Positions 8,852 to 34,964 of a DNA stretch of 34,964 nucleotides are shown piece after piece (the first letter of the stretch is position 1; each line of letters opens with the position of its first letter). The stretch lies in the IMG/VR virus record IMGVR_UViG_3300016466_000672, positions 1 through 34,964 of that record; one strand, 5' to 3'. The translations under genes and the position numbers were made by a program. Source of the stretch: a virus. Lineage: Duplodnaviria > Caudoviricetes. Below the pieces are notes generated by a model. The model searched no databases. It worked only from the letters and a program-made list of their open reading frames with translations, and was not told the DNA's origin.

Positions 8852-9221
8852 GGAGGTTCTCTTTGAGGGCGGCGGCTTCGCGGGCGAGTTGGCGGTTGCG
8901 GAAGTCGTGCATCTCCTGCATCATGGCCATGGCGATGTCGCGCATGTTGCTCATGGCTTCGGCTGCGGATGATGCTTCGTGGTCGGCGAGCTGCTTGGGA
9001 TCGTCGAGGTCCACGTCGAAGCGGAGGTACTGCCAGCCGACTGCGCCGCCCGTCCGGTGATAGCAGTCCTTGCCGAATTCGTCGAGGGTGTGGCGGATGT
9101 TGCAGACGCAGATGTTGACGGAGTGGTCGCAGCCGCCGGTCTCGTCGAGGTACTGCTCGAGGAGCTGGATGACTTCGTTGAGGAGGTTGTTGCGGTGTTC
9201 GAGGTTTTGTTCCATGGTCAT
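8844..9221 (-). CDS. Hypothetical protein with CDH...C-x-C motif (start reassigned to ATG 9221)
   Basis: MTMEQNLE...GCDHSVNICVC; ATGA overlap with the UDG stop. Confidence 0.65.
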   Translation of the reverse strand: MTMEQNLEHRNNLLNEVIQLLEQYLDETGGCDHSVNICVCNIRHTLDEFGKDCYHRTGGAVGWQYLRFDVDLDDPKQLADHEASSAAEAMSNMRDIAMAMMQEMHDFRNRQLAREAAALKENLHD

Positions 9222-9892
9222 GTGGTCACCGGGAGGAATGGTGTGCGGATGGTGGGGGCAGACGGGCGTGCGAGATCGCCGGTCAGGAAGGATGAGAGCA
9301 GGGCCATGTGGTCGGCGACCGGGTGGATGAGTCCGGGTTCGCGGAGTACGGCGGCCGGGTGGTAGGTCGCGAAGAGGTGGGTGCGAGGGAGGGTTGGGAT
9401 GGACATGCCCTGCACGCGGAACGCGTCCTGCTGGGACAGTGCTTTCTTCTGGAACGTGCGGGACAGGTAGGTGACCGGATCTGCGCCGGCGCACAGGATG
9501 GCGCGGGCGGAAGCGGGTGCATGGTGGTCCAGGATGGCTGTGATGTCAAGCAGGGTGTTGGTGAAACAGGTGCGATAGTAGGCGGGCTTGGGCTTGCCGC
9601 CTGGCGACACGCATCGGGCCACGTTGCAGAGGTAGACCGTGGCGAGGCTGGTGATGGTTGAGCCTGTGAGGTACGGGCCGGACAGGAGTTGGCCCGAGGG
9701 TCCGATCCAGCACTCGCCTTGCCGGTCCTCTTGGGTACCGGGGTTCATGCCAATGACGATGACCACGGGGTTGGCCGGGTCAGGCGGCAGGCTGGTAGGT
9801 AGGTGGCGGGACGGGATGCCGACGTTCTTGGCGGCGGAATGGAGATCGCAGCCCACGCAGGTGGGCTTGGCCGGGAGAAGGTTGAGTTGCAT
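9218..9892 (-). CDS. Uracil-DNA glycosylase superfamily protein (family 4/5-like, Fe-S cysteines)
   Basis: CVGCDL, IGMNPG..ED..G..WIGPSG..L, NVARC, a later Cys, and TYHPAAVLR. Confidence 0.85.
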   Translation of the reverse strand: MQLNLLPAKPTCVGCDLHSAAKNVGIPSRHLPTSLPPDPANPVVIVIGMNPGTQEDRQGECWIGPSGQLLSGPYLTGSTITSLATVYLCNVARCVSPGGKPKPAYYRTCFTNTLLDITAILDHHAPASARAILCAGADPVTYLSRTFQKKALSQQDAFRVQGMSIPTLPRTHLFATYHPAAVLREPGLIHPVADHMALLSSFLTGDLARPSAPTIRTPFLPVTT

Positions 9893-9895
9893 GGG

Positions 9896-10348
9896 CTACC
9901 TTTGCTGGGATCGGATGAGTTGGATCAGGCGGCCGAGGTGGTTGAGTCCTTCGCCGCTGGGTGTCATGCCCCAGAAGCGGTCGTAACCACGTGGGTCGAT
10001 CTCAACGATGGGCTGGTCGCCTGTGGAGAGGAGAGCTTCGCGGAACCGGGGCTGTTCGAACTTCTTTCGGAGCAGGTATTCCATGATTGCGAGGCGACGG
10101 TCATTGAAGCCAGGCTCCATGGTGACTCGACGGCCAGCGGACTTGGCGGGCAGGCCAGCCCATTGGGGGTCGGCGTTGAGCAAGGCAGCGAGTGCCCGGC
10201 GTTGTGCCAGGTCTTCGGTCTTGGCTGCTTGGTATGCGTGCTCGACCGTGCGGTAGGGGATGCCGTGCCTGTCCACGATAGGGGTATCGAGGAGGTGCAT
10301 GTTCGACAGCAAGCGGTTGAGTGCAGTGCGTGTGTCGATGCGTGGCAT
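9896..10348 (-). CDS. NADAR family (YbiA-like) protein
   Basis: TVEHAYQAAK, AKSAGRRV, KFEQ..REALLSTGD..IVE, DRFWG and GLNHLG; GAAAGGA SD. Confidence 0.9.
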   Translation of the reverse strand: MPRIDTRTALNRLLSNMHLLDTPIVDRHGIPYRTVEHAYQAAKTEDLAQRRALAALLNADPQWAGLPAKSAGRRVTMEPGFNDRRLAIMEYLLRKKFEQPRFREALLSTGDQPIVEIDPRGYDRFWGMTPSGEGLNHLGRLIQLIRSQQR

Positions 10349-10361
10349 GGCGTTCCTTTCG

Positions 10362-10637
10362 CGTGAGTAATGTACCCCACCAGCCAGAGCCTTAGCGTGG
10401 TGATGGATTAGTGTGCATGACTGTGCGCGGATATCACGGCAGGGAGTCAGAGGCGTTCCATGCTCAGAGGCGGATGGATGGCTGGGGGATACGACGTGTC
10501 CCTACACACTGCTGTACGGGCAGTGGATCTATGGGACGCGCCAATTGCCGAGCACCGGACTGCATGCACTCACCGGTTCACATCGGCATTGGTTTGGTGG
10601 GGACGGGTCACGACACATGACACCTCAACGAGAGGTG
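10362..10637 (-). ncRNA. Candidate structured non-coding RNA or 5' leader
   Basis: No credible ORF here. Long-range closing pairs (10362-66 with 10608-12; 10375-82 with 10595-602) enclose two compound hairpins (10498-10537, 10547-10587), and there is an extra hairpin at 10621-10637. Strand is assumed from the flanking genes. Confidence 0.45.
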
Positions 10638-10646
10638 GGCATTTCG

Positions 10647-11273
10647 TCAGAGAATCGTGCCCGTCCCCGTGGGTGCGGGAAGGGTGGAGTCGCGGCACTG
10701 GAGGATGCCGGGAGTGGAACAGATGGGACCACGCGTGGTGGTCGGGTTCGGCTGGAAGGAAGGGGCAACGGCGCAGGAACGGAGGAGCTTGCCGAGCGGG
10801 TAGTCAAGGTCGAGCGGGTGCAGGCAGTCGATGAACTCGGCGGCCTCGGAGGAGGGCGGCATCAGTCGGGTCGGTTCGTCGAGGATCTTGTAGTAGAGGC
10901 GGGCGTAGAGGTCGGAGTCGGTGAGGTGGTTGGTGTTGAAGAGGAAGATGCCGACCATGGACAGGGCCTCGATGACGGTCCACAGTTCATCGTGCAGGCT
11001 GGTGGGGTCCGACAGTTCCTGGGGCGGGACGGGGATGATGCCGTGCTCGAGGAGGCGCTGGCGTGCGGTGACGGTGGGCGCGTGCTCGAGGTCGTACACC
11101 ATGGTCCAGTAGAACTCGTCGGGTTCGTGGGGGTTGTCGCGCAGCATGTCGGCGATGCAGGTGCGACGGGTTGCGAAGTGCTGGTCACGCAGCGCGATGG
11201 CGTCGGCCTGGAGGCGCGAGATGGGGTGCGGGCTGGTGTAGGGACGGGTGCGGACTGCGGTGGTGTTAGGCAT
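10647..11273 (-). CDS. Hypothetical protein resembling a conserved bacterial family (start reassigned to ATG 11273)
   Basis: LWTVIEALSMVGIFLFNTNHLTDSDLYARL...EP..LMPP...ID; overlaps the upstream stop by 8 nt. Confidence 0.7.
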   Translation of the reverse strand: MPNTTAVRTRPYTSPHPISRLQADAIALRDQHFATRRTCIADMLRDNPHEPDEFYWTMVYDLEHAPTVTARQRLLEHGIIPVPPQELSDPTSLHDELWTVIEALSMVGIFLFNTNHLTDSDLYARLYYKILDEPTRLMPPSSEAAEFIDCLHPLDLDYPLGKLLRSCAVAPSFQPNPTTTRGPICSTPGILQCRDSTLPAPTGTGTIL

Positions 11274-12054
11274 GGGCGGGTTCCAGTTCGGTGATGAAGG
11301 AGTGTGCTGCACGGAGACGGTCGGGCGTGGTGAGGGCGTTGAGGGAACGCTTCTCCACCTCGGTCACGGCTTGGAGGAGAAGGCCCTTGGTGAGACCGGC
11401 GGCACGGTGGGGGAAGAGACCGCCTGGACCGGCGGGGTTGGCGAGTTCACGGCGCAGGTGCGGGACGTTCTGCCAGAGGATCGCGCCGTTGTCGGCGAGA
11501 GCGCAGGCCGTGGTGTCGATGAACTCACGGGTGTCTGGCAGGGGCACGGCGTCGAATGCGTTGGTCTCGTTGACGAACGTGCGGGCCTGGGTGATGAAGT
11601 TCACCATGCACGAGGCGATGGTGGAGTCGTAGGAGGATGCGAGACCGGGCGTGTTCTTGCGGTGGAAGGAGATGGTGTCTCCGCCTGACATGGCGAGGTT
11701 GTCGCAGACGAACGTGCGCAGGGACATGGTGCCTGATTGGGCGAAGGACTTGTCCCAGGAGGAGCGGAAGCCGAAGCCGACGAGGCCGTCGTGGTTGGGG
11801 AGTGGGATGAGGGGATGCTCGAACTCGATGAGGCCGAAGAACTTGTCGGCGCCGGTCTTGCCGGGCTTGATGGCAAGGGACTCGGTGCGGAGGGTTGCGC
11901 CCATGAGGGTCAGGGCGGAGCGGATGGCGGTAACGAAGGAGGAGTGGGGGATGGGGTGCCACGAGTCGGTGGGCTCGGGCGGACAGATGCAGGACAGGTC
12001 ATCGAATGCGATGTCGTGTGCGCCGCAGTGGAGATAGAGACGGTTGCTTGACAT
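11266..12054 (-). CDS. DUF932/DUF945-like phage/plasmid protein (start reassigned to ATG 12054)
   Basis: LHCGA...PEPTDSWHPIPH...FFG...GFRSSWDKS...FVCDNLA...HRK; GAGGA SD. Confidence 0.7.
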   Translation of the reverse strand: MSSNRLYLHCGAHDIAFDDLSCICPPEPTDSWHPIPHSSFVTAIRSALTLMGATLRTESLAIKPGKTGADKFFGLIEFEHPLIPLPNHDGLVGFGFRSSWDKSFAQSGTMSLRTFVCDNLAMSGGDTISFHRKNTPGLASSYDSTIASCMVNFITQARTFVNETNAFDAVPLPDTREFIDTTACALADNGAILWQNVPHLRRELANPAGPGGLFPHRAAGLTKGLLLQAVTEVEKRSLNALTTPDRLRAAHSFITELEPAHA

Positions 12055-12056
12055 GG

Positions 12057-12317
12057 TCAGTCCTCGAGTTCGGGGTTGATGGTGTGGGCTGAGACGCCGA
12101 GTGCACGGCAGGTGGTGCGGAGTGCGGAGGCGTTGGCCTGCCACGAGCGGAAGGCCTCGGTGAAGGACGGGGTGGAGATGATGAGGGAGACGGAGCAGGT
12201 GTCCGGGTCGGGATAGTCGGTGGCGATGACCTCGGGGAAGTGGTGGGCTGGCGTGCCCCAGACCTGCATGGGGCGACCGTAGGGATTGAATGCGACGAAG
12301 ACTGAGAAGTTTGGCAT
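12057..12317 (-). CDS. Small hypothetical protein (start reassigned to ATG 12317)
   Basis: MPNFSVFVAFNPYGRPMQVWG..., 86 aa, starting just after a hairpin. Confidence 0.6.
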   Translation of the reverse strand: MPNFSVFVAFNPYGRPMQVWGTPAHHFPEVIATDYPDPDTCSVSLIISTPSFTEAFRSWQANASALRTTCRALGVSAHTINPELED

Positions 12318-12334
12318 GGTGGTCGGTGGGAAGT

Positions 12335-12375
12335 CCCCACGGGGCGGGGACGCGAAAGCGGCCCGCCCCGTGGGG
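12335..12375. repeat. Intergenic hairpin, CGC-loop-GCG family copy 1
   Basis: CCCCACGGGGCGGG-ga-CGC GAAA GCG-g-CCCGCCCCGTGGGG, 14-bp perfect lower stem. Confidence 0.85.
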
Positions 12376-12387
12376 TGCTGAAAGGAG

Positions 12388-12978
12388 TCAGGTGTGTGCC
12401 CAGGCGATGCGGCGGTCGAGTCCGCCGATGGTGGTCCAAGCGGAGTCGGGGTCACGTGCGAGGCGACGGGTGCGGGCGCAGCGGACGACGCCGAGACGGC
12501 GGTACAGGCGGGCGCGCATGTCGGATCGGCGGGATGAGGCGAGGCCGAGTTCGATGACGGCTGGTGGGGGCGGTGCGGGAGGCGTGTGGATGACGATGGG
12601 CTCGTGCTGGGCGTAGCGGTGTGCTCCGCCTGCTGCCATGGAGAGGCGGTGCTCCTCGGAGAGCTTGCGGTTCCATCGTCGGTAGGTGGACCGCCATGCG
12701 GGCGGCAGGGATTCGAGGGAGCGGGTCAGTTCCCACGCGGAGCGGAAGGAGAACTCCTCGACGGTGGAGCCGTCGTCCTCGCCGGGGAATGCGGCTGGCT
12801 CGATTGAGTCGTGGGTGGGGGCCGAGAGGTAGGGCCGGTGGTCCTCTGCCATGGGCAGATTGGGCAGGCAGGACTGGGTGTTGGCGTCGATCTCGGAATG
12901 GCGGACGATCCAGGAGGAGAAGGGCAGTGGGACGAGGAGTGCGGAGACGGTCAGTGATGGCAGACTTGGGTGGGACAT
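12388..12978 (-). CDS. Hypothetical protein (start reassigned to ATG 12978)
   Basis: GAAAGGA SD 5 nt upstream; 196 aa with an Arg-rich C-terminus. Confidence 0.6.
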   Translation of the reverse strand: MSHPSLPSLTVSALLVPLPFSSWIVRHSEIDANTQSCLPNLPMAEDHRPYLSAPTHDSIEPAAFPGEDDGSTVEEFSFRSAWELTRSLESLPPAWRSTYRRWNRKLSEEHRLSMAAGGAHRYAQHEPIVIHTPPAPPPPAVIELGLASSRRSDMRARLYRRLGVVRCARTRRLARDPDSAWTTIGGLDRRIAWAHT

Positions 12979-13003
12979 GCAGTTCCTTTCAGCATGGTGC
13001 CCG

Positions 13004-13041
13004 TCCCCCACCAGCGTGCAGATGCAGAGGCTGGTGGGGGA
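13004..13041. repeat. Intergenic hairpin
   Basis: TCCCCCACCAGC / GCTGGTGGGGGA 12-bp stem with a TGCA-ga-TGCA apex. Confidence 0.8.
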
Positions 13042-13057
13042 TTGAGGGCGATGGGGC

Positions 13058-13654
13058 TTAGCGGCGGACCTTGGTGAGCTTGCGGCGGGGGGCGGTGCGC
13101 TCCATGTCGCAGTCGTCGCCGGTGAAGGAGGCGGCGGGGTCCGACTCGTTGGCGGCGGAGATGTAGGACGGGCTGGTCTTGGAGCCCTTGACGTTGGCGT
13201 ACTGGCCGTCGTCGGTCCAGCAGATGTTGGGGGCCACGCGAGTGCCCGTGAAGGTGGCGGCGATGGCGGCGAGGGCAAGGAAGGCGTCACGGATGCCCGT
13301 CTTGTCGCCGGTCTCGAGCGCGGTGTTGAGGGTCTTGCAGAGCCCGTACGTCTCGTCGCGGTCCATGCCGGCGAGTGCGGCGAGGTCGCAGAAGACGTTG
13401 GCGCCCGACCACATGAAGCCGTTGGGCCCGGTGAACGAGACGAAGTCGTTCAGCCGGAGCTGCGGGCGGTTGGGGAAGGCGTCGACGGTGATCTGGACCT
13501 GGAACCGGAGGCAGAACTTGCCGGACTTGTCGGCCGTCTGCGGGACGACCGCCGTGATGGTGGCGGAGTAGCGGCCCGACGGGTAGTCCGAGGGCGTGGC
13601 GCGTGCGAACTTGGAGGTATCGAGCGAGGCGAGCGAGTCGAACTTGATGTCCAT
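13058..13654 (-). CDS. Putative ssDNA-binding protein (DUF669-like OB fold)
   Basis: PSGRYSATITAV....KSGK..LRFQVQI N-terminus, a strong AGGAG SD, and position in the early replication region. Confidence 0.5.
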   Translation of the reverse strand: MDIKFDSLASLDTSKFARATPSDYPSGRYSATITAVVPQTADKSGKFCLRFQVQITVDAFPNRPQLRLNDFVSFTGPNGFMWSGANVFCDLAALAGMDRDETYGLCKTLNTALETGDKTGIRDAFLALAAIAATFTGTRVAPNICWTDDGQYANVKGSKTSPSYISAANESDPAASFTGDDCDMERTAPRRKLTKVRR

Positions 13655-13707
13655 TGTGGACTCCTGTGGAAGAAAGAAAGGAAAGAAAGGAATAAACGAG
13701 GCGTAAC

Positions 13708-13747
13708 CCCCGTGCGGGGGGCGCGAAGCGACTCCCCCCGCACGGGG
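13708..13747. repeat. Intergenic hairpin, CGC-loop-GCG family copy 2
   Basis: CCCCGTGCGGGGGG-CGC GAA GCG-act-CCCCCCGCACGGGG, 14-bp lower stem. Confidence 0.85.
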
Positions 13748-13762
13748 TGGTGAGAGAGGGTG

Positions 13763-13897
13763 TCAACGGGAGAGGCAGGAAGGGCAGAACTGGAGTGATT
13801 CGATGTTGCCGTCGGACTCCGTGTAGTTGCAGATGGTGATGAGTTCGGGATCGAAATCCTTGTCGCAGCCATCGCAGGATTCGGTGGTGGGGTCCAT
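13763..13897 (-). CDS. 44-aa Zn-finger peptide (not in ORF track)
   Basis: MDPTTESCDGCDKDFDPELITICNYTESDGNIESLQFCPSCLSR: two CxxC pairs and a GAAAGGA SD. Confidence 0.75.
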   Translation of the reverse strand: MDPTTESCDGCDKDFDPELITICNYTESDGNIESLQFCPSCLSR

Positions 13898-13908
13898 GGT
13901 GTGTCCTT

Positions 13909-14133
13909 TCAGGAGGGTGAGCCGCAGCGGGTGCAGCGGAAGTCGGCGTCGAGTTCGAGGTCGTGGTGGCAGGTGAGGCAGTGGCGGCCGGCGTCCCGGT
14001 CGTGGTTGTCGGGGTGGTCGAGGTCGGCCTGCGTGAGGTTGTCGAGTGCGGACTGCATCTCCTCGATGAGCGGCTGCTCGGGGACGCGGGAGAGACGGCG
14101 GGCGAAGTCGGACTTGTTGGTGGGAGCGGACAT
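13909..14133 (-). CDS. 74-aa protein with C-terminal Zn ribbon (start reassigned to ATG 14133)
   Basis: CLTC...CTRC; GAAAGGAGG SD. Confidence 0.75.
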   Translation of the reverse strand: MSAPTNKSDFARRLSRVPEQPLIEEMQSALDNLTQADLDHPDNHDRDAGRHCLTCHHDLELDADFRCTRCGSPS

Positions 14134-14206
14134 GGGGGGCCTCCTTTCAGGCCTGGGGACGGGATGGGATTCCTCGAACCCGGCAACGCGCCGGGTCACG
14201 AGAGAA

Positions 14207-14242
14207 GCACCCCCTCCCCACGCAGAGCGGGGGAGGGGGTGC
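14207..14242. repeat. Intergenic hairpin, CGC-loop-GCG family copy 3
   Basis: GCACCCCCTCCCC-a-CGC AGA GCG-GGGGAGGGGGTGC, 13-bp lower stem. Confidence 0.85.
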
Positions 14243-14255
14243 GAAGGGGCGGGCG

Positions 14256-14636
14256 TCAGAACGGCGCCTCGGGTGCGGACGCAGCGGGGGCCGCGGGTGC
14301 CGCGGGGGCCTTGGCGGGGATCGCCTTGACGCCGTCGCGGGTGGGCTTCAGGTAGCAGCCCGTGCCGACGCGGTTGCGCAGGGCGAAGGAGCCGTTCTCG
14401 AAGAACGCGATCTCGTGCCCGGCGGGGAGCGTGATGGGCTCGCCGGTGCGGTTCTGGAGCGTGACGTAGGTGGTCTCGTTGCCCGTGCTGGGGTCGCGGT
14501 GGACGTGACGGGTCAGCACGAACGGGTCCGGTGCCGCGGTCGGGCGGGCGGCGAGACGGGCGTTTGCCTCGGCGAGCGCAGCGGTCTGCTGTGCGACGAG
14601 GGCTTCGAGGGCGGCGATGCGATCAGCGATCTTCAT
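14256..14636 (-). CDS. First early gene: N-terminal coiled coil and Ala/Pro tail ending in PF
   Basis: GAAAGGAG SD; the C-terminus APAAPAASAPEAPF resembles SSB-type tails. Confidence 0.75.
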   Translation of the reverse strand: MKIADRIAALEALVAQQTAALAEANARLAARPTAAPDPFVLTRHVHRDPSTGNETTYVTLQNRTGEPITLPAGHEIAFFENGSFALRNRVGTGCYLKPTRDGVKAIPAKAPAAPAAPAASAPEAPF

Positions 14637-14691
14637 GACATGCTCCTTTCAAGAGCGGTAACCGGAAACGACGCACACTGCAACACGCAGG

Positions 14692-14725
14692 TGAGTCCTT
14701 CCTTCGCAACGCGAGGAAGGACTCA
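14692..14725. repeat. Hairpin in early leader, CGC-loop-GCG family copy 4
   Basis: TGAGTCCTTCCT-t-CGC AAC GCG-AGGAAGGACTCA, 12-bp lower stem. Confidence 0.85.
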
Positions 14726-14923
14726 ACGCACACACCGGGCTCACGGCCAAGCGCACGACCGCAAGACAACGCGGCGCGCCCCGGCTTACGATGCGGCGAC
14801 AGCGTGTGGAGTCCGATAGCCAGCGGAGCCGGAGAGCCGGAGGGGGGGTCAGGCCCCCAGCGGAGGTGCAACCAGAAGAGGAAAGGCCCTCTCCCTCTCA
14901 AAATTCCCCCACAAACCCCTAAC

Positions 14924-15017
14924 GAGTACCAGGAATACCAACCTTTCTTTCCTTCGTAGAGAGAGATATATATAAAGAATAGAACGCACAGGTCAAACCG
15001 GTACACCCGGTATTCCC
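14924..15017. other. Putative replication origin (inverted short repeats around an AT-rich core)
   Basis: GTACC-aGGAATACC on the left, AGAGAGATATATATAAAGAATAGAA in the centre, and GGTAC-accc-GGTATTCC on the right. Lies downstream of the helicase operon. Confidence 0.55.
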
Positions 15018-15026
15018 ATAACATAA

Positions 15027-15057
15027 CCCCCCACCGACCTTACGGCCAGGTGGGGGG
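15027..15057 (-). terminator. Probable intrinsic terminator of the helicase operon
   Basis: CCCCCCACC / GGTGGGGGG stem, followed on the minus strand by TTATGTT, 15 nt after the stop at 15073. Confidence 0.5.
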
Positions 15058-15072
15058 CATGAGAGGAGTCTG

Positions 15073-15324
15073 TCAGTCCATTTCGCCGAGGAAGTGCAGT
15101 CTCAGGTAGTGCAGTGCGGCTTTCCGGGTCTCGTGCTCTCCATCCAAAGCCTTCCGCCCCTCCTGCCGAACCGCACCCCGGTCAGTCCCAATCCAGCGGG
15201 GACCAGTGACCCCTTCCAGCCAGTCCAGATAACGCAACGCAGCGCATGCGCGGGGTGTGATGTCGCTCATCACCACACCCATCACCTGCTCTTCCACCCG
15301 CTCGTCGCGATCCGTTGGGTCCAT
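15073..15324 (-). CDS. Hypothetical protein
   Basis: 83 aa with an AGGAGG SD, directly after the helicase gene. Confidence 0.7.
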   Translation of the reverse strand: MDPTDRDERVEEQVMGVVMSDITPRACAALRYLDWLEGVTGPRWIGTDRGAVRQEGRKALDGEHETRKAALHYLRLHFLGEMD

Positions 15325-15332
15325 CAGGCCTC

Positions 15333-16748
15333 CTAGTGCTCATCATCGTACTCCTTCCGGAGACTCATTCCCGAAATTCCACGCTCGTGGCCCTGCGACT
15401 CGCTCAGCCGCACCTGCCTCAAGTCCCAACTGCTGCCCTGCACCACCTTCAGCGGAAGCATGTTGTTGGCAATGTGCATCCTGATTCTGTTTGCCTTCGT
15501 CCACGCATCCCACTGCGACCTCACCATTCCGTTCGACACAAATCCGTCACGACGCCTCACAAATCGAGCCTCAAGAAACGCGTCGAACGGATTGTTCTGC
15601 AAGTGGTACATGTGCACGGCACGCTCAGCAGCCTTCGGCACCGGCCACCTGTCGCCAGCCTTGCTGTTCTCCAACCTGTTCGCACCGGCTACGGCCCACG
15701 CCGCAATGCCAGCCAACTCCTTGCTCAGCTCGCCCTCCAGGTCCAGGTCCTCCTTGCCCTCAAAGCTGACCTCGAACGGCAACACAAGCATCTTCCCGCT
15801 CAAACCCCTGCCCTTGTTCGGCAGGACCGGGATCTCGTTGCTCTGCATGATCACCGCCGCGTTCACCACCACGTTCCGCTGCTGCCTCATGTACTTCGCG
15901 TCCACCGTCATCGGATCCCGACCCACGATGTTCTTCACCACCCTGCACACCCGCTCACCGCTCTTCCCGTCCAACTCGCTCACCTCGTTGATGCTCAGCA
16001 CCTTCGTGCGCTCCAGCCCGTCCATGCCGAACCCGCCAGCCAAATCCTCAAGGCTCGCACCCATGAACGCGTCACGACCCACCAACCGCCGGATCACGCC
16101 GCTGATCGTGCCCTTTCCGCCCCTGATCTTCCCGTACATCAGCATCCAACGCGCGTACTTCCGGTTGCCCATCAGGCAGTATCCAACCCAGCGAGCAAGC
16201 AATTCCTCCCACACAGGGTCGCCTTCCCCCCATTCAGAAACAGCCTGCTTCCACCTCGGGCACACCGCATCCGGCTTGTAATCCACAGGCAGAATCGCCG
16301 TGTCAAACCACCGCGCCGGCCTCTCCATCGTTTCCAGCGTCCGCACGTTGACCAGCCGATCCCTGAACGCGACCGTCTCCCCCGTGGGAAACCGATCATC
16401 CGGCTCGTCCAGCCAAAGCGGAACCTCCTCCGCATCAATCCGCACCAATGCCTCAAGAGCACGAACTACCCCGTCAACCTTCTGCTTGTCAGGGCTGTAC
16501 CTCACGATCACCGGGCCGTTCTGGGTCTGCCGCTCGTAGAGCGCATCCTCCAGCACCAGCCATACGCGATCCCGGATGCGCTCCTCGTCGAGCACATGCC
16601 ACGTCCCGGCCTCCCAGGCCCACCAGTCATTCTTCCATCTCCACAATCCGCGCATCCCGCCAGGCGCGGTAAACTGTCTCTGCAGGATCCTCCTCGCGAC
16701 CTTCACGGGCTCGAGGGACTGCAGCGGGTTCTGCATCCATTCGGTCAT
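15333..16748 (-). CDS. P4/D5-family SF3 helicase (no N-terminal primase domain)
   Basis: D5_N-like FRDRLVNVRT...PVDYKPDAVCPRW, Walker A GKIRGGKGT, Walker B INE, motif C QSN; GAGGAG SD. Confidence 0.85.
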   Translation of the reverse strand: MTEWMQNPLQSLEPVKVARRILQRQFTAPGGMRGLWRWKNDWWAWEAGTWHVLDEERIRDRVWLVLEDALYERQTQNGPVIVRYSPDKQKVDGVVRALEALVRIDAEEVPLWLDEPDDRFPTGETVAFRDRLVNVRTLETMERPARWFDTAILPVDYKPDAVCPRWKQAVSEWGEGDPVWEELLARWVGYCLMGNRKYARWMLMYGKIRGGKGTISGVIRRLVGRDAFMGASLEDLAGGFGMDGLERTKVLSINEVSELDGKSGERVCRVVKNIVGRDPMTVDAKYMRQQRNVVVNAAVIMQSNEIPVLPNKGRGLSGKMLVLPFEVSFEGKEDLDLEGELSKELAGIAAWAVAGANRLENSKAGDRWPVPKAAERAVHMYHLQNNPFDAFLEARFVRRRDGFVSNGMVRSQWDAWTKANRIRMHIANNMLPLKVVQGSSWDLRQVRLSESQGHERGISGMSLRKEYDDEH

Positions 16749-16771
16749 GTTGTCTCCTCTCTGAGATCACA

Positions 16772-16799
16772 ATTATGGCAACTCCAGTCTCTCCGTCAA
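16772..16799 (-). promoter_or_regulatory. Sigma70-type promoter for the helicase, embedded in the start of the divergent gene
   Basis: Minus strand reads TTGACG-N16-CATAAT with an extended -10 TG. Confidence 0.55.
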
Positions 16800-17773
16800 G
16801 CGCCTACTTGACTTCTGCAACCGATTTCCGGGGTATTCCGATTTCGCAACTTCTTGCCGCCATCGGTTACTACGAGCCAACGCTTGCTGACGTGCAGGAA
16901 CAGCAGCGCCGATATCACGGGACCCCCTCGCGCCACGCGTCGTCCATGGGCGGCGCGCCGTCGAAGTCCGACCCCCGAAAGCGCGCGAAGGCATCCCGAC
17001 TTGAATCAGAACGCAGAGCAAGCGAACGATTCAAGGAAACCATGAAGGCTCGAAAGGAAAAGGCGCAGACCGCCGCAGCCGAGAAGAAGGCAAAGAAGGC
17101 AACGAGTGCCATCATGGGGCTGGTGGGGTCCATCACCGGTGGAGGCCCCGCCACCAAGAAGGCAACGTCCAAGAAGCCGTCTGAGCGGTTTCCGATGACC
17201 GTCGACGAGGCATCCGGTGCGATGATGCCGAGCCGCGCATACGAAGACCGGAGAACCTACTCCTCGAAGCCTGGCTACGTTGCGCCGGTCCGTGAACAGG
17301 AGCCCGTGTTTGAACGCGGACCAACCCCCACCCAGCTGATGCAGGCGACGCCTGAGCAGGTTTCGGAGGCTTCCGCACGGGGTGAGGAATGGGCCAGAAA
17401 GTACGCGTTCGGCGACGTCGACCTTCTCAAGCAGGGACTTGCCGAGCGAAGGGGTGAGTTCGGTCCTTCTCCCTATGCCCGTGGCTCGATCCCCGAGGAA
17501 CGTGCGTTCAACGAAGCAGCGAACCTTGCCCGTGACGTCGGATATTCCGGGGCCATGAAGGGACTGGAGATCCAGACGGAGAAGGCGCAGCGCGACTTTG
17601 AACGCGCACAGGCTCGTCTTCGCGACATTCAGCGTGCCGCGGACGCGCAGAGGCAGGCCGAGATCCAGGCGCAGATCGAGGGGATTGAGGCGATGCCGAC
17701 CGGAATGTTCGGCAACCTTACCCCGTCGAGCGTCTTCAATCCGAAGAAGCCCAGGCCCGCATACGTTCGGTGA
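16775..17773 (+). CDS. Hypothetical K/A/R-rich helical protein
   Basis: 332 aa with a histone-H1-like KAQTAAAEKKAKKATS / ATKKATSKK stretch; GTGA overlap with the next gene; start uncertain. Confidence 0.7.
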   Translation: MATPVSPSSAYLTSATDFRGIPISQLLAAIGYYEPTLADVQEQQRRYHGTPSRHASSMGGAPSKSDPRKRAKASRLESERRASERFKETMKARKEKAQTAAAEKKAKKATSAIMGLVGSITGGGPATKKATSKKPSERFPMTVDEASGAMMPSRAYEDRRTYSSKPGYVAPVREQEPVFERGPTPTQLMQATPEQVSEASARGEEWARKYAFGDVDLLKQGLAERRGEFGPSPYARGSIPEERAFNEAANLARDVGYSGAMKGLEIQTEKAQRDFERAQARLRDIQRAADAQRQAEIQAQIEGIEAMPTGMFGNLTPSSVFNPKKPRPAYVR

Positions 17774-24398: not shown

Positions 24399-25296
24399 AG
24401 AACAGAATCCCCAGAACGAAGAAGCGATTGACCTCGACACCGAGTTGGAGTTTGAGGACGGAACGACTGCCACGCTCGGAGAAATTCTCCGGGCACAGCA
24501 GGAAGCGGCTGAAGCTGCCGAACAGGCTCAGCAGCAGGTGATCGGTCTTGAGCGTTTCAGGGAGAACGCGACCCGTCTTATGCGCGGCGAGGGCGCCGAT
24601 GAGCAGGCTGCGTACGAGGTTCTTCGTGGCGCCGGATTTAGCGACGAAGAAGCCAAGCAGTACGCCATGGAGTACGTGAATGACGAGACTGGCCGGAACG
24701 AGGAGACCGACATGGAGGATGACGTTGACGAGGCCCAGATTGAGAAGATGCTGAGGCGGACTACTGCCAAGGCTGAAAGTCAGGCCGACGCCGCCATGCG
24801 GGAGGCTCGTGACCTTCGGCTTCGGCTTCTGAAGGAAGAAATGGATCGTCGGGTCGTCGAGAGCATTGACAGGAACCCCGAGATCGTTAAGATGCTGGAA
24901 ACGCTCGACAAGACCCGTGGCCGCGAGCACGCGGCGGGTGCCTGGCGAGCTCTGCAGGAGCAGGTCCGCGAGGCCACCCTGAAGAACCTCTACAGCCGGC
25001 GAGACGCCGAAGGTGGACGGTTCAACGAGGATTGGGTCGCTGACGAGGCTGCGAAGGCAGCCAGCGCGATTGCAGGAAATTATCGCACGGTCATCGGCGA
25101 CATTGATGCCCTCGGGCGGTCGCCGGAAACAGATGGCGAGCTCGAGACGTTGCGTTCGCAGAAGCCCGTGGCACCGCCCGAATACAAGAAGGGCATGGAC
25201 CGTGGGGCTGCAGATGCAGCTGTTCGTAGTTTCAATGTTGACGCGTTGAGCCGCCTTGCCCTCGAATCAGAGGCTGGTGGGGAAACGAAGGTCTGA
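24391..25296 (+). CDS. Capsid scaffolding protein
   Basis: Highly acidic, helical 301-aa protein immediately upstream of the capsid gene; AAGGAG SD. Confidence 0.75.
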   Translation: MSEEQNPQNEEAIDLDTELEFEDGTTATLGEILRAQQEAAEAAEQAQQQVIGLERFRENATRLMRGEGADEQAAYEVLRGAGFSDEEAKQYAMEYVNDETGRNEETDMEDDVDEAQIEKMLRRTTAKAESQADAAMREARDLRLRLLKEEMDRRVVESIDRNPEIVKMLETLDKTRGREHAAGAWRALQEQVREATLKNLYSRRDAEGGRFNEDWVADEAAKAASAIAGNYRTVIGDIDALGRSPETDGELETLRSQKPVAPPEYKKGMDRGAADAAVRSFNVDALSRLALESEAGGETKV

Positions 25297-25336
25297 TCCA
25301 TCGCACACCGTGCCGTCCTAAGGACGGAGAACAATA

Positions 25337-26863
25337 ATGGCTTACATCAACACTGCAGGCACGCTCTTTGGGGCGCAGTCTGCTCGGATCCAGGAGATCC
25401 TGAACAAGAACATCGAGGTGTTCCTCCCGGCCCTCGATCCGGCGTGGCGGGATACCACGGTCACCAGTCAGGGCGTCGGTCAGGCCAGCCTCATCGGCCG
25501 AGACATGAAGATCCTCAAGATCTACATGGGCTCGATGGCTGGCGTGTTTGAGGGTGGCGCAAATGCCAACTTCACCATGCTTGGCGACACCGTTGCCAAC
25601 GTCGGCGACAAGATGCAGCGTCAGAGCATCACGCAGACGTGGCCCGATGCCACGGATGGTGCAATGGCTCGTCCGTACCGCCTTGGCATTCAGATGAAGG
25701 CCATGGTCTCCAACCTGCTTGTCACCCTTGGTGAGATGCAGGCCGAGGCCACCCCGGCATTCATCGGCGAGGTCATTGCGCCGAAGCTTGAGGGTCACGC
25801 GCGTCTGATTGCGCACACGCTCTGCAACTACTGGTATATGCAGGACAATGCCAACTTCAAGATTGGCACTATCTCTGCAATCACCGGGCTTGCCTTCTCC
25901 ACCGACACGACTTTCAGCTTTACCCCCTCTGAGCTGAACATTGATCGGTACGCGGTTGGCATGCGCATTGACATCTACGATACCACTGGTGCCACCCGTC
26001 GTAACGAGAACGCAGGTGTTCGTACCTCTGCGTACATCACGGCTGTTGACGAGATCAAGAACCTGGTTTCGGTGCGTGTTGTTAATCAGGATGTGACCGG
26101 TACGGTGATCAACACCGACACGATCCGATTCGCCAACAGCGCAAACAGCTCGCCTGCTGGTTTTGGAATCGCCGGCATCAACAGCTGGCTCCGTTACGCT
26201 GCTGGTTCTGGTGCCGATGCGTTCCTTCTTGGTGCGGATCGCGATACCAGCAACGAGATCAACGTGAACACCCACCCGGAGTTCAAGTCGTTCTACAAGA
26301 GTGGCGTCGGCACCCTGACGGAACACAAGCTCCGCCAGTACCTCCGTGGCTTCCACCGTGCGAAGGAGAAGTACGGTCAGTACGTTGACTGCCTCATCGC
26401 CAGCGATGGCGTGTGGCTCAACTACGAGGCGCAGAAGATCGGCCAGTACATGCTGGACCGCACCAACCGCCTCTCGAGCCTCACGAGCGAGGGCAGCCAG
26501 GAAGGCTTCAAGTTCACCTTCGACGGCCGCACGTACACCGGCTACACCTCAAACTACATTGAGTCTGGCACGGTCTACGGCATCCGAAAGGGTGGCTCGA
26601 ACTGGAAGAAGTACGTGCCCCCGTCGCCGAAGGGCACCCAGAAGTTCGACAAGGCCGAGTCCTTCATCCCCTTCGAGTTCGTCGCCCCGGCGCTGGGCTA
26701 CTCCAGCGTCAAGGTGCCGATCACCAAGGCGAGCGGAAGCGGCACGAGCCTTGTGACGGAAGGCGCTCAGATGCCGGGCATGCTGCGCATGCAGCTCGTT
26801 CCGGATCAGCCCGCTGGCATCCGTCTCGATGGCGTGACCGAGGACCGTCAGTACGGCGCTTAA
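25337..26863 (+). CDS. Major capsid protein
   Basis: 508 aa after the scaffold, GGAG SD, strongly biased codons, followed by a strong terminator. Confidence 0.85.
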   Translation: MAYINTAGTLFGAQSARIQEILNKNIEVFLPALDPAWRDTTVTSQGVGQASLIGRDMKILKIYMGSMAGVFEGGANANFTMLGDTVANVGDKMQRQSITQTWPDATDGAMARPYRLGIQMKAMVSNLLVTLGEMQAEATPAFIGEVIAPKLEGHARLIAHTLCNYWYMQDNANFKIGTISAITGLAFSTDTTFSFTPSELNIDRYAVGMRIDIYDTTGATRRNENAGVRTSAYITAVDEIKNLVSVRVVNQDVTGTVINTDTIRFANSANSSPAGFGIAGINSWLRYAAGSGADAFLLGADRDTSNEINVNTHPEFKSFYKSGVGTLTEHKLRQYLRGFHRAKEKYGQYVDCLIASDGVWLNYEAQKIGQYMLDRTNRLSSLTSEGSQEGFKFTFDGRTYTGYTSNYIESGTVYGIRKGGSNWKKYVPPSPKGTQKFDKAESFIPFEFVAPALGYSSVKVPITKASGSGTSLVTEGAQMPGMLRMQLVPDQPAGIRLDGVTEDRQYGA

Positions 26864-33533: not shown

Positions 33534-34964
33534 ATGCAAGTCCCTGAGACCGACATTATTTGGCCTTACTCGCTACTTAAGGTAAGCGAGAACAAGTCCA
33601 CCTCGCGCACCGGCATTCCAATCGGATCCGCTTATGAACTCATTGGGGTTGATGGTTCAAGCGACGGCGGGCTCAAGCCATTTCCTGGGTTCCGTGAGAT
33701 GCACCGGTTCCAAATGGTGAATGCGCCGGTGTTTCCCATTGCTGGATTGAACCCGTACGCGGGGCTCAGGCATCGGACCAAGGTGATTGATTTCTGGTCC
33801 TTCAGCGTGATCGCTGGTGCGAATAAGCGGGTGTGGGGATTCGTGTATGTCGCGAAGCGACCAAACGACATGACTCCTGGGTCTGAATCCTGCAGCAGCG
33901 TTTTTGACCTGATGATGGACTACTACGCTCCGCAGGGCGCAGTCTCAAGTTGGAGCTCCATCGTGCTTCAGGAGTCGATGAGCGATGCTGGTGTTCTTGG
34001 GACTGACGACTCAAAGAACAATTCAGTGATGTCGGTCGAGACGACTGGACGAATGCTGTACATCTTCCGTCGTGGCGTTGCCCCGGTAAGCGTGTTCTTC
34101 AAGTACGCAACCTCTCCTGTCTCGACGACCCCGATCATCAATGAGTCTGCTGGCCCGGGAAAGAAGCCGACGGTCGGGATGTATCAGCAAGGTTCTCCTG
34201 CTGTCGATACGGACTTTCCTGCAACAACCTCGGCAACAGAAGGACACATCTCCGCGTCGTTCCCTGACCCCACCAGCGCGGCCAATGCTCCAGGCAGCGT
34301 CGTGTTCTGCAGGCTTGATCCAGCAGTGACCGCTGCGGGAACGGCCATCTCGAATATCGGCACCGGAAACCAGTTTGATGCAGGGACTTACTCCCTTGCC
34401 GTGCAGTTCGAGGACAGTCGAAGCGGTCGAAAGAGCCAGTTCAGCCAGAGCGTTGAGTTCACGTTTACTGGCACCATTACGAAGAAGTTGTTTGTCGATG
34501 GCATTTACGACAGCAGCAAGTTCGACGTGGTGAACATCTACCGCAGCGTTCGTACCCAAAATGCGGCCGGTGCGTACACCGGCGGGATCATGCAGCTTGA
34601 AGCACGCGTGACCCTGTCGAGCTACGACGTCGCGACCTTGCCGATGCGAACGGCCGCGACGCTGCCGAGCGGCGGAAACATCAAGTATTTCCGATACGCT
34701 TACCAGCTCAAGGACTCTGCGCTCGTGATGCAGGACGTGTTCCTTGATCGTGCCGCCTTCTACGAAACGATGCCAAAGGGCGGCGCCGGTGCTCTTCTCG
34801 ATGGGACCATGCTGGTGGGGAACATCAGCGAGGAGCCGGGTGACCTCACGGGAACAGGCGAGACCCGCTGGAGTTCGAGCACCGAGACCAGCGTTGAGAT
34901 GTTCACCGCCAAGGGTCAGTACCAGCCCCCGAGCGTTGGTGATGCCGTGACCTGCTTCCGTCGG
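33534..34964 (+). CDS. Putative tail tubular/nozzle (P22 gp10 / tubular B-like) protein, truncated; not in ORF track
   Basis: MQVPETDIIWPYSLL...DGGLKPFPGFRE..., open to the window end. The GxLxxxPG early motif and beta-propeller-like composition fit nozzle proteins. Confidence 0.6.
   Translation, partial: MQVPETDIIWPYSLLKVSENKSTSRTGIPIGSAYELIGVDGSSDGGLKPFPGFREMHRFQMVNAPVFPIAGLNPYAGLRHRTKVIDFWSFSVIAGANKRVWGFVYVAKRPNDMTPGSESCSSVFDLMMDYYAPQGAVSSWSSIVLQESMSDAGVLGTDDSKNNSVMSVETTGRMLYIFRRGVAPVSVFFKYATSPVSTTPIINESAGPGKKPTVGMYQQGSPAVDTDFPATTSATEGHISASFPDPTSAANAPGSVVFCRLDPAVTAAGTAISNIGTGNQFDAGTYSLAVQFEDSRSGRKSQFSQSVEFTFTGTITKKLFVDGIYDSSKFDVVNIYRSVRTQNAAGAYTGGIMQLEARVTLSSYDVATLPMRTAATLPSGGNIKYFRYAYQLKDSALVMQDVFLDRAAFYETMPKGGAGALLDGTMLVGNISEEPGDLTGTGETRWSSSTETSVEMFTAKGQYQPPSVGDAVTCFRR

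What the first reader, a model, noticed from the sequence alone, without database searches (positions are those of the whole stretch)
10362..10637. About 275-nt multibranched structured RNA candidate upstream of the NADAR-UDG-PolA operon
Seen: the largest ORF-free gap inside the otherwise tightly coupled early arm. CGTGA (10362) pairs with TCACG (10608), and CCCCACCA (10375) with TGGTGGGG (10595). These close a domain holding GTCCC-CACTGC/GCAGTG-GGGAC and GCCGA-ACCGG-TGCATGCA-CCGGT-TCGGC hairpins plus a direct repeat TCAGAGGCG. The closing stem ends right beside the NADAR SD (GAAAGGA). It does not match tRNA, tmRNA or RNase P hallmarks that I can recognise. Inference: a novel phage ncRNA (for example a decoy or antitoxin-mimic RNA) or a regulatory leader controlling the counter-defence and replication genes.
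Basis: partly seen in the sequence, partly recalled or inferred. Interest (0 to 1): 0.7.

Follow-up and report, generated by a model that had tools for sequence, protein, structure and literature searches.

The report
Modular kissing-loop RNA of lake phages
A group of freshwater phages carries a conserved 300-base non-coding element, matching no known RNA family, that is predicted to fold into four stem-loop modules and likely acts as a free RNA that would pair with copies of itself and might imitate one host tRNA.

Summary
The element runs 10372-10668 and most likely reads on the minus (operon) strand. It has four modules: D, B2, B1 and A. There are 38 distinct versions in one phage clade, whose host is likely freshwater Phycisphaerales; I found it in no distant phage or host genome searched and in no Rfam family. 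The D stem covaries strongly (7 of 14 pairs change on both sides, 99% paired) and ends in an unpaired ACCA, like an RNase P substrate. B1 and B2 are swapped between phages. The B2 loop switches among about ten different palindromes, a sign of RNA-RNA kissing. The element is not tied to NADAR: the next gene is UDG in 14 of 38 versions and NADAR in 4. RNA-seq contigs from four studies cover it, but cannot show strand or ends. Its conserved motifs match the anticodon loop and 3' end of the putative host's tRNA-Gln(CUG) better than those of any other host tRNA tested. Best reading: a new self-associating phage ncRNA, probably a decoy. The tRNA-Gln link is a post-hoc lead.

The parts
10372..10668 (-). 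Whole candidate ncRNA: four tandem stem-loop modules, D-B2-B1-A in the 5' to 3' direction
10599..10668 (-). Module D: 9 bp + 5 bp stem (10668-10655 with 10613-10599) enclosing the conserved UCUCUGACG motif and a variable hairpin; present in 32 of 37 measurable versions
10595..10598 (-). Unpaired ACCA directly 3' of the D stem (stem plus ACCA = 74 nt); predicted RNase P recognition end
   Evidence: invariant in 19 of 19 distinct D sequences
10646..10652 (-). CUCUGAC, identical to the anticodon loop of tRNA-Gln(CUG) of the putative host; in the window it also holds the orfX stop codon
10541..10592 (-). Module B2: swappable long hairpin; loop palindrome UGCAUGCA at 10561-10568
10495..10540 (-). 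Module B1: swappable hairpin with GUAC loop palindrome (10514-10517); a three-way junction in other phages
10372..10492 (-). Module A, the conserved core: closing helix 10492-10479 with 10386-10372, near-invariant CUCUGAGC and UAAGGCUCUGGCUG, inner hairpin with GAUAUC loop (10430-10435)
10479..10487 (-). CCCCAGCCA, identical to the mature 3' end of the putative host tRNA-Gln(CUG); paired inside module A
   Evidence: exact in 20 of 29
10647..11273 (-). orfX, about 205 aa, no Pfam or PHROG family; always directly upstream; homologs in Planctomycetota genomes
9896..10348 (-). NADAR gene (PF08719), the variable downstream cassette in this phage; SD at 10354-10360
9218..9892 (-). UDG gene (PF03167), the commonest direct downstream neighbour in relatives

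Best explanation
The element is a conserved four-module phage RNA, likely transcribed with the early replication operon, predicted to be cut free behind orfX by host RNase P at the D stem, and likely to pair with copies of itself through palindromic hairpin loops so that it would act in trans as a multivalent decoy. Shown here: conservation, covariation of D, modular swapping, palindrome switching, lack of coding constraint, and presence in RNA libraries. Inferred: strand (about 0.8), release as a discrete RNA (about 0.6), kissing-loop oligomers (about 0.6). The most specific candidate for what it imitates is host tRNA-Gln(CUG), so it would soak up a host factor that acts on that tRNA, such as an anticodon nuclease (about 0.25, untested).
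For: D helix: 7 of 14 pairs change on both sides, 99.2% of cells paired, 0 of 500 shuffles as high, slid controls 34-49% (19 distinct sequences). ACCA after the stem is invariant. The stem starts 4-9 nt after the orfX stop in 28 of 30 versions where both could be measured. E. coli RNase P cuts hairpin substrates including phage CI and C4 RNAs (PMC5499578, passages). Loops: 20 of 44 distinct confident loops hold a palindrome against 8.9 +/- 2.5 expected; for 6-9-nt loops 13 of 19 against 7 of 42 in coding DNA. B2 loops show GGCC, CUGCAG, UGCAUGCA, CACGUG, UUGCAA, GCUAGC, CUAG, ACGU and UACUAGUA. Kretsch et al. used such palindrome switching as evidence for cross-chain bridges in OLE and GOLLD (10.1101/2024.12.08.627333, passages). 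The downstream gene varies freely. Contigs of RNA runs X1, X4, X5, X6 and X7 lie on the element. Of 45 host tRNA signatures, only Gln(CUG) has its 7-nt loop conserved in the element (27 of 29), and it has the longest 3'-end match, 9 nt.
Against: Module A is too conserved to covary: 2 of 28 pairs, 33 of 500 shuffles as high, so its inner fold is not established. Strand evidence is moderate: G.U-valid mismatches 9 against 5, and 8 against 3 by a second, non-independent skeleton; z is better on minus in 7 of 9 versions but better on plus in the window itself. D is missing in 5 of 37 versions. The one sharp contig end seen, 10575-10576 in one study, is inside B2, not at the predicted 10668 cut. 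In X1, contigs run past both the ACCA and the 3' end of A. Loop counts are not independent, and one B2 type has no Watson-Crick palindrome. The tRNA-Gln match is post hoc. The 3'-end copy is exact in only 20 of 29 and is paired. The loop copy is not closed by an anticodon-like stem, and L174 changes its first base. The host is inferred from one gene.
Confidence: 0.45

Rival explanations
1. A cis-acting leader that controls the downstream UDG/PolA genes. Uncharged tRNA-Gln would invade the UGGCUG strand of the module A closing helix, or a tRNA-Gln-binding protein would bind the CUCUGA motifs, tying phage replication to host nitrogen status.
For: Always sense to, and close upstream of, a gene with its own SD. 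UGGCUG is unchanged in 29 of 29 while its partner strand takes wobble changes (13 UDG-found loci were not selected on this motif). It is complementary to the tRNA-Gln 3' end.
Against: No terminator there. The SD is outside all supported helices and varies without compensation. The downstream gene is interchangeable, and an extra stem module intervenes in 11 of 38. No invariant unpaired CAG specifier. GlnRS is under the family cut-off in 5 of 5 incomplete host genomes. Self-complementary loops are not explained.
Confidence: 0.22
2. A self-associating phage ncRNA of the GOLLD/ROOL/ARRPOF type whose partner has nothing to do with tRNA-Gln; the matches are chance.
For: Same anatomy as the best explanation. 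My rough chance estimate for the loop match alone is about 0.06 per strand (23 conserved 7-mers, about 40 loops).
Against: The same tRNA also ranks first of 45 at the 3' end, and 3 of the 4 conserved loop-like 7-mers are CUCUG-based.
Confidence: 0.2
3. A single-stranded DNA or primer-RNA element of the replication origin, or a recombination anchor for gene cassettes, that folds as DNA.
For: It lies in the replication arm near PolA. Covarying stems and palindromes can also be DNA features. The site just downstream is an insertion hotspot. ARRPOF lies in a plasmid replication region (PMC5737381, passages).
Against: RNA-library contigs lie on it. UUCG and CUUG tetraloops occur on the minus strand. 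Related phages with the same PolA-UDG module lack it.
Confidence: 0.1
4. A conserved small ORF, or a chance fold.
For: Plus-strand ORFs overlap the gap in the window.
Against: Lengths fall in all three frame classes and stops are scattered; strong covariation.
Confidence: 0.03

Closest known systems
GOLLD, ROOL and OLE RNAs (10.1101/2024.12.08.627333, passages seen)
   Same: Phage-encoded (GOLLD, ROOL) multi-stem RNAs of unknown function; loops that switch between palindromes mark cross-chain kissing; conserved 3' region and variable 5' region as in GOLLD
   Different: About 300 nt rather than 550-800; no Rfam match; four tandem modules, no shown pseudoknots; no tRNA gene in the window or in one complete relative; confined to one clade
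ARRPOF RNA (PMC5737381 and PMC12990946, passages seen)
   Same: Similar size (255 nt), mobile element, homodimer through kissing loops
   Different: No sequence or model match; Fusobacterium plasmid replication region, not a phage operon
Phage P1/P7 C4 and P4 CI antisense RNAs (PMC5320573, PMC5499578, passages seen)
   Same: Module D is 74 nt (C4 about 77), starts with GG, sits inside an operon transcript and looks like an RNase P hairpin substrate
   Different: No C4 model match; no complementary target for its conserved loop on phage transcripts; it stays linked to three further modules
T-box leaders and the E. coli thrS operator (recalled, no call)
   Same: Use of tRNA 3'-end pairing or anticodon-loop mimicry by an RNA upstream of genes
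   Different: No specifier loop, terminator or SD occlusion found; the genes downstream are not amino-acid genes

Membership tests
Any Rfam 15 family | Covariance model match at the gathering score | tested here: not met
   Window: one E 0.13 hit elsewhere; five homolog loci: no hit on the element up to E 5
tRNA / tmRNA | Cloverleaf with T loop, or tRNA-like domain plus tag ORF | tested here: not met
   ARAGORN finds none in the window or in complete relative G003; no T loop in D
GOLLD / ROOL / OLE / ARRPOF | Family sequence-structure model | tested here: not met
GOLLD / ROOL / OLE / ARRPOF | Loops that covary as palindromes | tested here: met
   counts not corrected for relatedness
GOLLD / ROOL / OLE / ARRPOF | RNA-only dimer or cage in vitro | not testable with these tools
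   needs native gels or cryo-EM
C4 / CI antisense RNA | Stem starting GG with a 3' CCA-type end, about 75 nt | tested here: met
C4 / CI antisense RNA | Conserved loops complementary to targets in phage transcripts | tested here: not met
   No sense-strand target of the 8-9-nt conserved motifs shared by the window and G003
C4 / CI antisense RNA | Cleavage by RNase P | not testable with these tools
   contigs cannot show ends
T-box leader | UGGN strand complementary to the tRNA NCCA end | tested here: inconclusive
   UGGCUG unchanged in 29 of 29 but paired in the closing helix
T-box leader | Specifier codon loop and terminator or SD switch | tested here: not met
Retron msr-msd / DGR | Reverse transcriptase in the same genome | tested here: not met
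   PF00078 in 0 of 5 near-complete relatives

The most novel reading that the evidence does not exclude
A phage RNA that copies both identity ends of one host tRNA (tRNA-Gln CUG: anticodon loop and 3' acceptor end) without being a tRNA, and polymerises through kissing loops into a multivalent decoy or sensor for the host's tRNA-Gln machinery. This would be an RNA counter-defence against tRNA-targeting immunity, or a nitrogen sensor, in a Planctomycete phage.
Probability: 0.2. Interest if true: 0.85.

Novelty: new variant of a known kind. Interest (0 to 1): 0.6.

Why it matters
The function of large phage ncRNAs such as GOLLD and ROOL is an open question. This one is small enough to synthesise, comes with natural module swaps and loop variants that serve as ready controls, and offers a specific ligand to test (tRNA-Gln CUG). 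It also marks an insertion hotspot for NADAR, DprA-like and DUF4326 cassettes in phages whose likely host is a freshwater Planctomycete. If the tRNA-Gln link fails, it is still a new structured RNA class of narrow range.

Tried and rejected
NADAR-specific leader: of 80 NADAR loci only L001 carried it. Small ORF behind a plus-strand GAGGAGG: frame not kept. Repeated promoter or operator: short extra BLAST matches did not reproduce as copies of the core motif. Hammerhead, group II domain V, TPP, FMN, pistol and SRP likenesses were judged by eye from recall and dropped; Rfam found none. Antisense targets in the phage: none shared. Host homologs: 0 of 5 and 1 weak hit (E 0.048 for A, E 0.0098 for D) among 151 genomes of the putative host order; not found in those searched. 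Distant phages: no hit in 60 PolA-centred loci, which are not whole genomes; loci with orfX at 32-37% identity lack it. The D pattern scan had too short a gap; its 120 hits are chance (60 checked by ARAGORN; 80 by model). Earlier scan findings: none. Literature: 8 searches showed no description of this RNA. In PMC10690425 the core motif was absent from 4 of 6 held supplement files; two zip files and three large files could not be read, so it may be among that paper's candidates.

Full report
Setting. The window is a 67% complete virus record with PolA, UDG, NADAR, a D5-like primase, a terminase and an SU10 adaptor. The gap lies on the minus-strand early arm between orfX (ends 10647) and NADAR (starts 10348). 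Complete relatives are 51-54 kb. orfX homologs occur in 25 genome loci, 22 titled Planctomycetota (mostly Phycisphaerales) and 3 titled Chitinophaga, and match Phycisphaerales DNA at 72-76% over 250-310 bp. The host assignment is an inference from this gene.

Observation. Rfam and ARAGORN find nothing on it.

Homologs. All 13 loci found with UDG carry the element. Motif scans gave 22 IMG/VR contigs and 29 metagenome hits. Of 40 distinct sequences, 2 were dropped as chance, leaving 38 including the window. It is in 19 of 21 loci found with orfX; the two without are 37% identical. It was not found in 60 PolA-centred loci, nearly all of more distant phages, nor convincingly in 151 genomes of the putative host order.

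Structure. Homologs fold into four tandem modules. D (10668-10599) has a 14-pair helix with 7 pairs changed on both sides and 99.2% of cells paired, followed by an invariant ACCA. It starts 4-9 nt after the orfX stop in 28 versions; in the window and one near twin orfX reads 22 nt into it; it is missing in 5; 3 could not be measured. B2 and B1 come in several unrelated sequence types that are mixed between phages. A (10492-10372) is the conserved core; its closing helix has one double change and several wobble changes, but its interior is too invariant to test. No reading frame is kept. The strand is probably minus: G.U-valid mismatches 9 to 5 and 8 to 3, better z in 7 of 9 versions, UUCG and CUUG loops; the window itself folds better on plus.

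Loops. Palindromes are in 20 of 44 distinct confident loops (8.9 +/- 2.5 expected). The B2 loop takes about ten different palindromic forms, with one type lacking any (four were read by eye where the energy fold closed the loop differently). The counts are not corrected for kinship. Kretsch et al. took palindrome switching as evidence of cross-chain bridges in OLE and GOLLD (passages).

Context. The gene after A is UDG in 14, NADAR in 4, DUF4326-like in 3, DprA-like in 2 and unknown in 2 versions; 11 have a further stem module first, and 2 end at the contig edge. The SD is outside supported helices and no terminator was found. This argues against a NADAR-specific leader but cannot exclude a leader for the operon.

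Expression. Nine runs held small shares; 7 were laid. Contigs from X1, X4, X5, X6 and X2, X7 lie on the element, at up to depth 81 in X7; X9 gave none; X2 and X4 appear to be one data set. In one study three contigs stop at 10575 and one passes from 10576 into what I recall as an Illumina adapter, an end I cannot explain. X1 contigs cross the ACCA and the 3' end of A, and also touch neighbouring genes. Contigs cannot show strand, ends or level, and DNA may be present.

tRNA-Gln likeness. The putative host's tRNA-Gln(CUG) has the loop CUCUGAC and, after CCA addition, the end CCCCAGCCA. Among 45 distinct tRNA signatures (30 of 43 and 30 of 33 tRNA loci of two genomes, plus Gln loci of three more), it alone has its loop conserved in the element (27 of 29) and it has the longest 3'-end match. 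My rough joint chance is about 0.003, computed after the fact. Against this: the end copy is exact in 20 of 29 and paired, the loop copy has no anticodon-like stem, and GlnRS is below cut-off in 5 of 5 incomplete host genomes, so GlnRS is an unlikely partner.

Mechanism. I commit to a trans-acting RNA, released from the operon transcript at the RNase P-like D stem (hairpin substrates: PMC5499578, passages; C4 RNA: PMC5320573, passages), that self-associates through loop palindromes and serves as a decoy (0.45). Rivals are a tRNA-Gln-sensing leader (0.22), an oligomeric RNA with an unrelated partner (0.2) and a DNA-level element (0.1). Release, oligomers and ligand are all untested.

Known families. 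It works most like the small end of the GOLLD/ROOL/ARRPOF group (PMC12990946 and PMC5737381, passages) but matches none of their models, and fails the target test for C4/CI and the RT test for retrons. 10.64898/2026.07.01.735769 was seen as abstract and outline only. Eight paper searches showed no description; parts of the PMC10690425 supplements could not be read.

Verdict. A real, previously uncatalogued structured phage RNA of narrow range, with a testable oligomer and tRNA-mimic hypothesis. Interest 0.6.

Noticed in passing
L106, L108, L115, L176, L184, L099, L101, L110, L163, L179, L180: 10-80 nt downstream of module A: A fifth covarying stem ('module C', about 12 bp, flanked by CCUUUCUGCCCA and AUGG, inner ACGACGG) in 11 of 38 versions; absent from the window; in L116 it lies about 370 nt from A, with a small ORF between.
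   Followed up: partly
window 13660-13750, minus strand: Conserved covarying G/C hairpin followed by a long U-rich tract, just upstream of a gene: an intrinsic terminator or attenuator; similar hairpins near 14200-14245.
   Followed up: partly
window 16772-16799, minus strand: The only sigma-70-like promoter (TTGACG-16-CATAAT, extended -10) in 9500-17500, at the head of the early arm.
   Followed up: no
window 10349-10371 and equivalents: Insertion hotspot: NADAR, DprA-like, DUF4326 and unknown genes replace each other between the RNA and UDG, several with the same GAAAGGA SD leader.
   Followed up: partly
window 10647-11273 (orfX): Family-less 205-aa gene, 45-65% identical to chromosomal genes of freshwater Planctomycetota; probably host-derived; close copies always travel with the RNA.
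   Followed up: partly
window 25000-26750 and 34500-34750: Tiles with strong folding z-scores (down to -4.0 and -4.4), inside late-gene ORFs.
   Followed up: no
L481, L489, L491, L495 (PolA): Some element-bearing phages have a PolA only about 30% identical to the window's and a different gene order, so the orfX-RNA unit has moved between genome types.
   Followed up: partly
window 10575-10576: Shared contig end in two RNA runs of one study, inside the B2 internal loop; possible processing site.
   Followed up: partly
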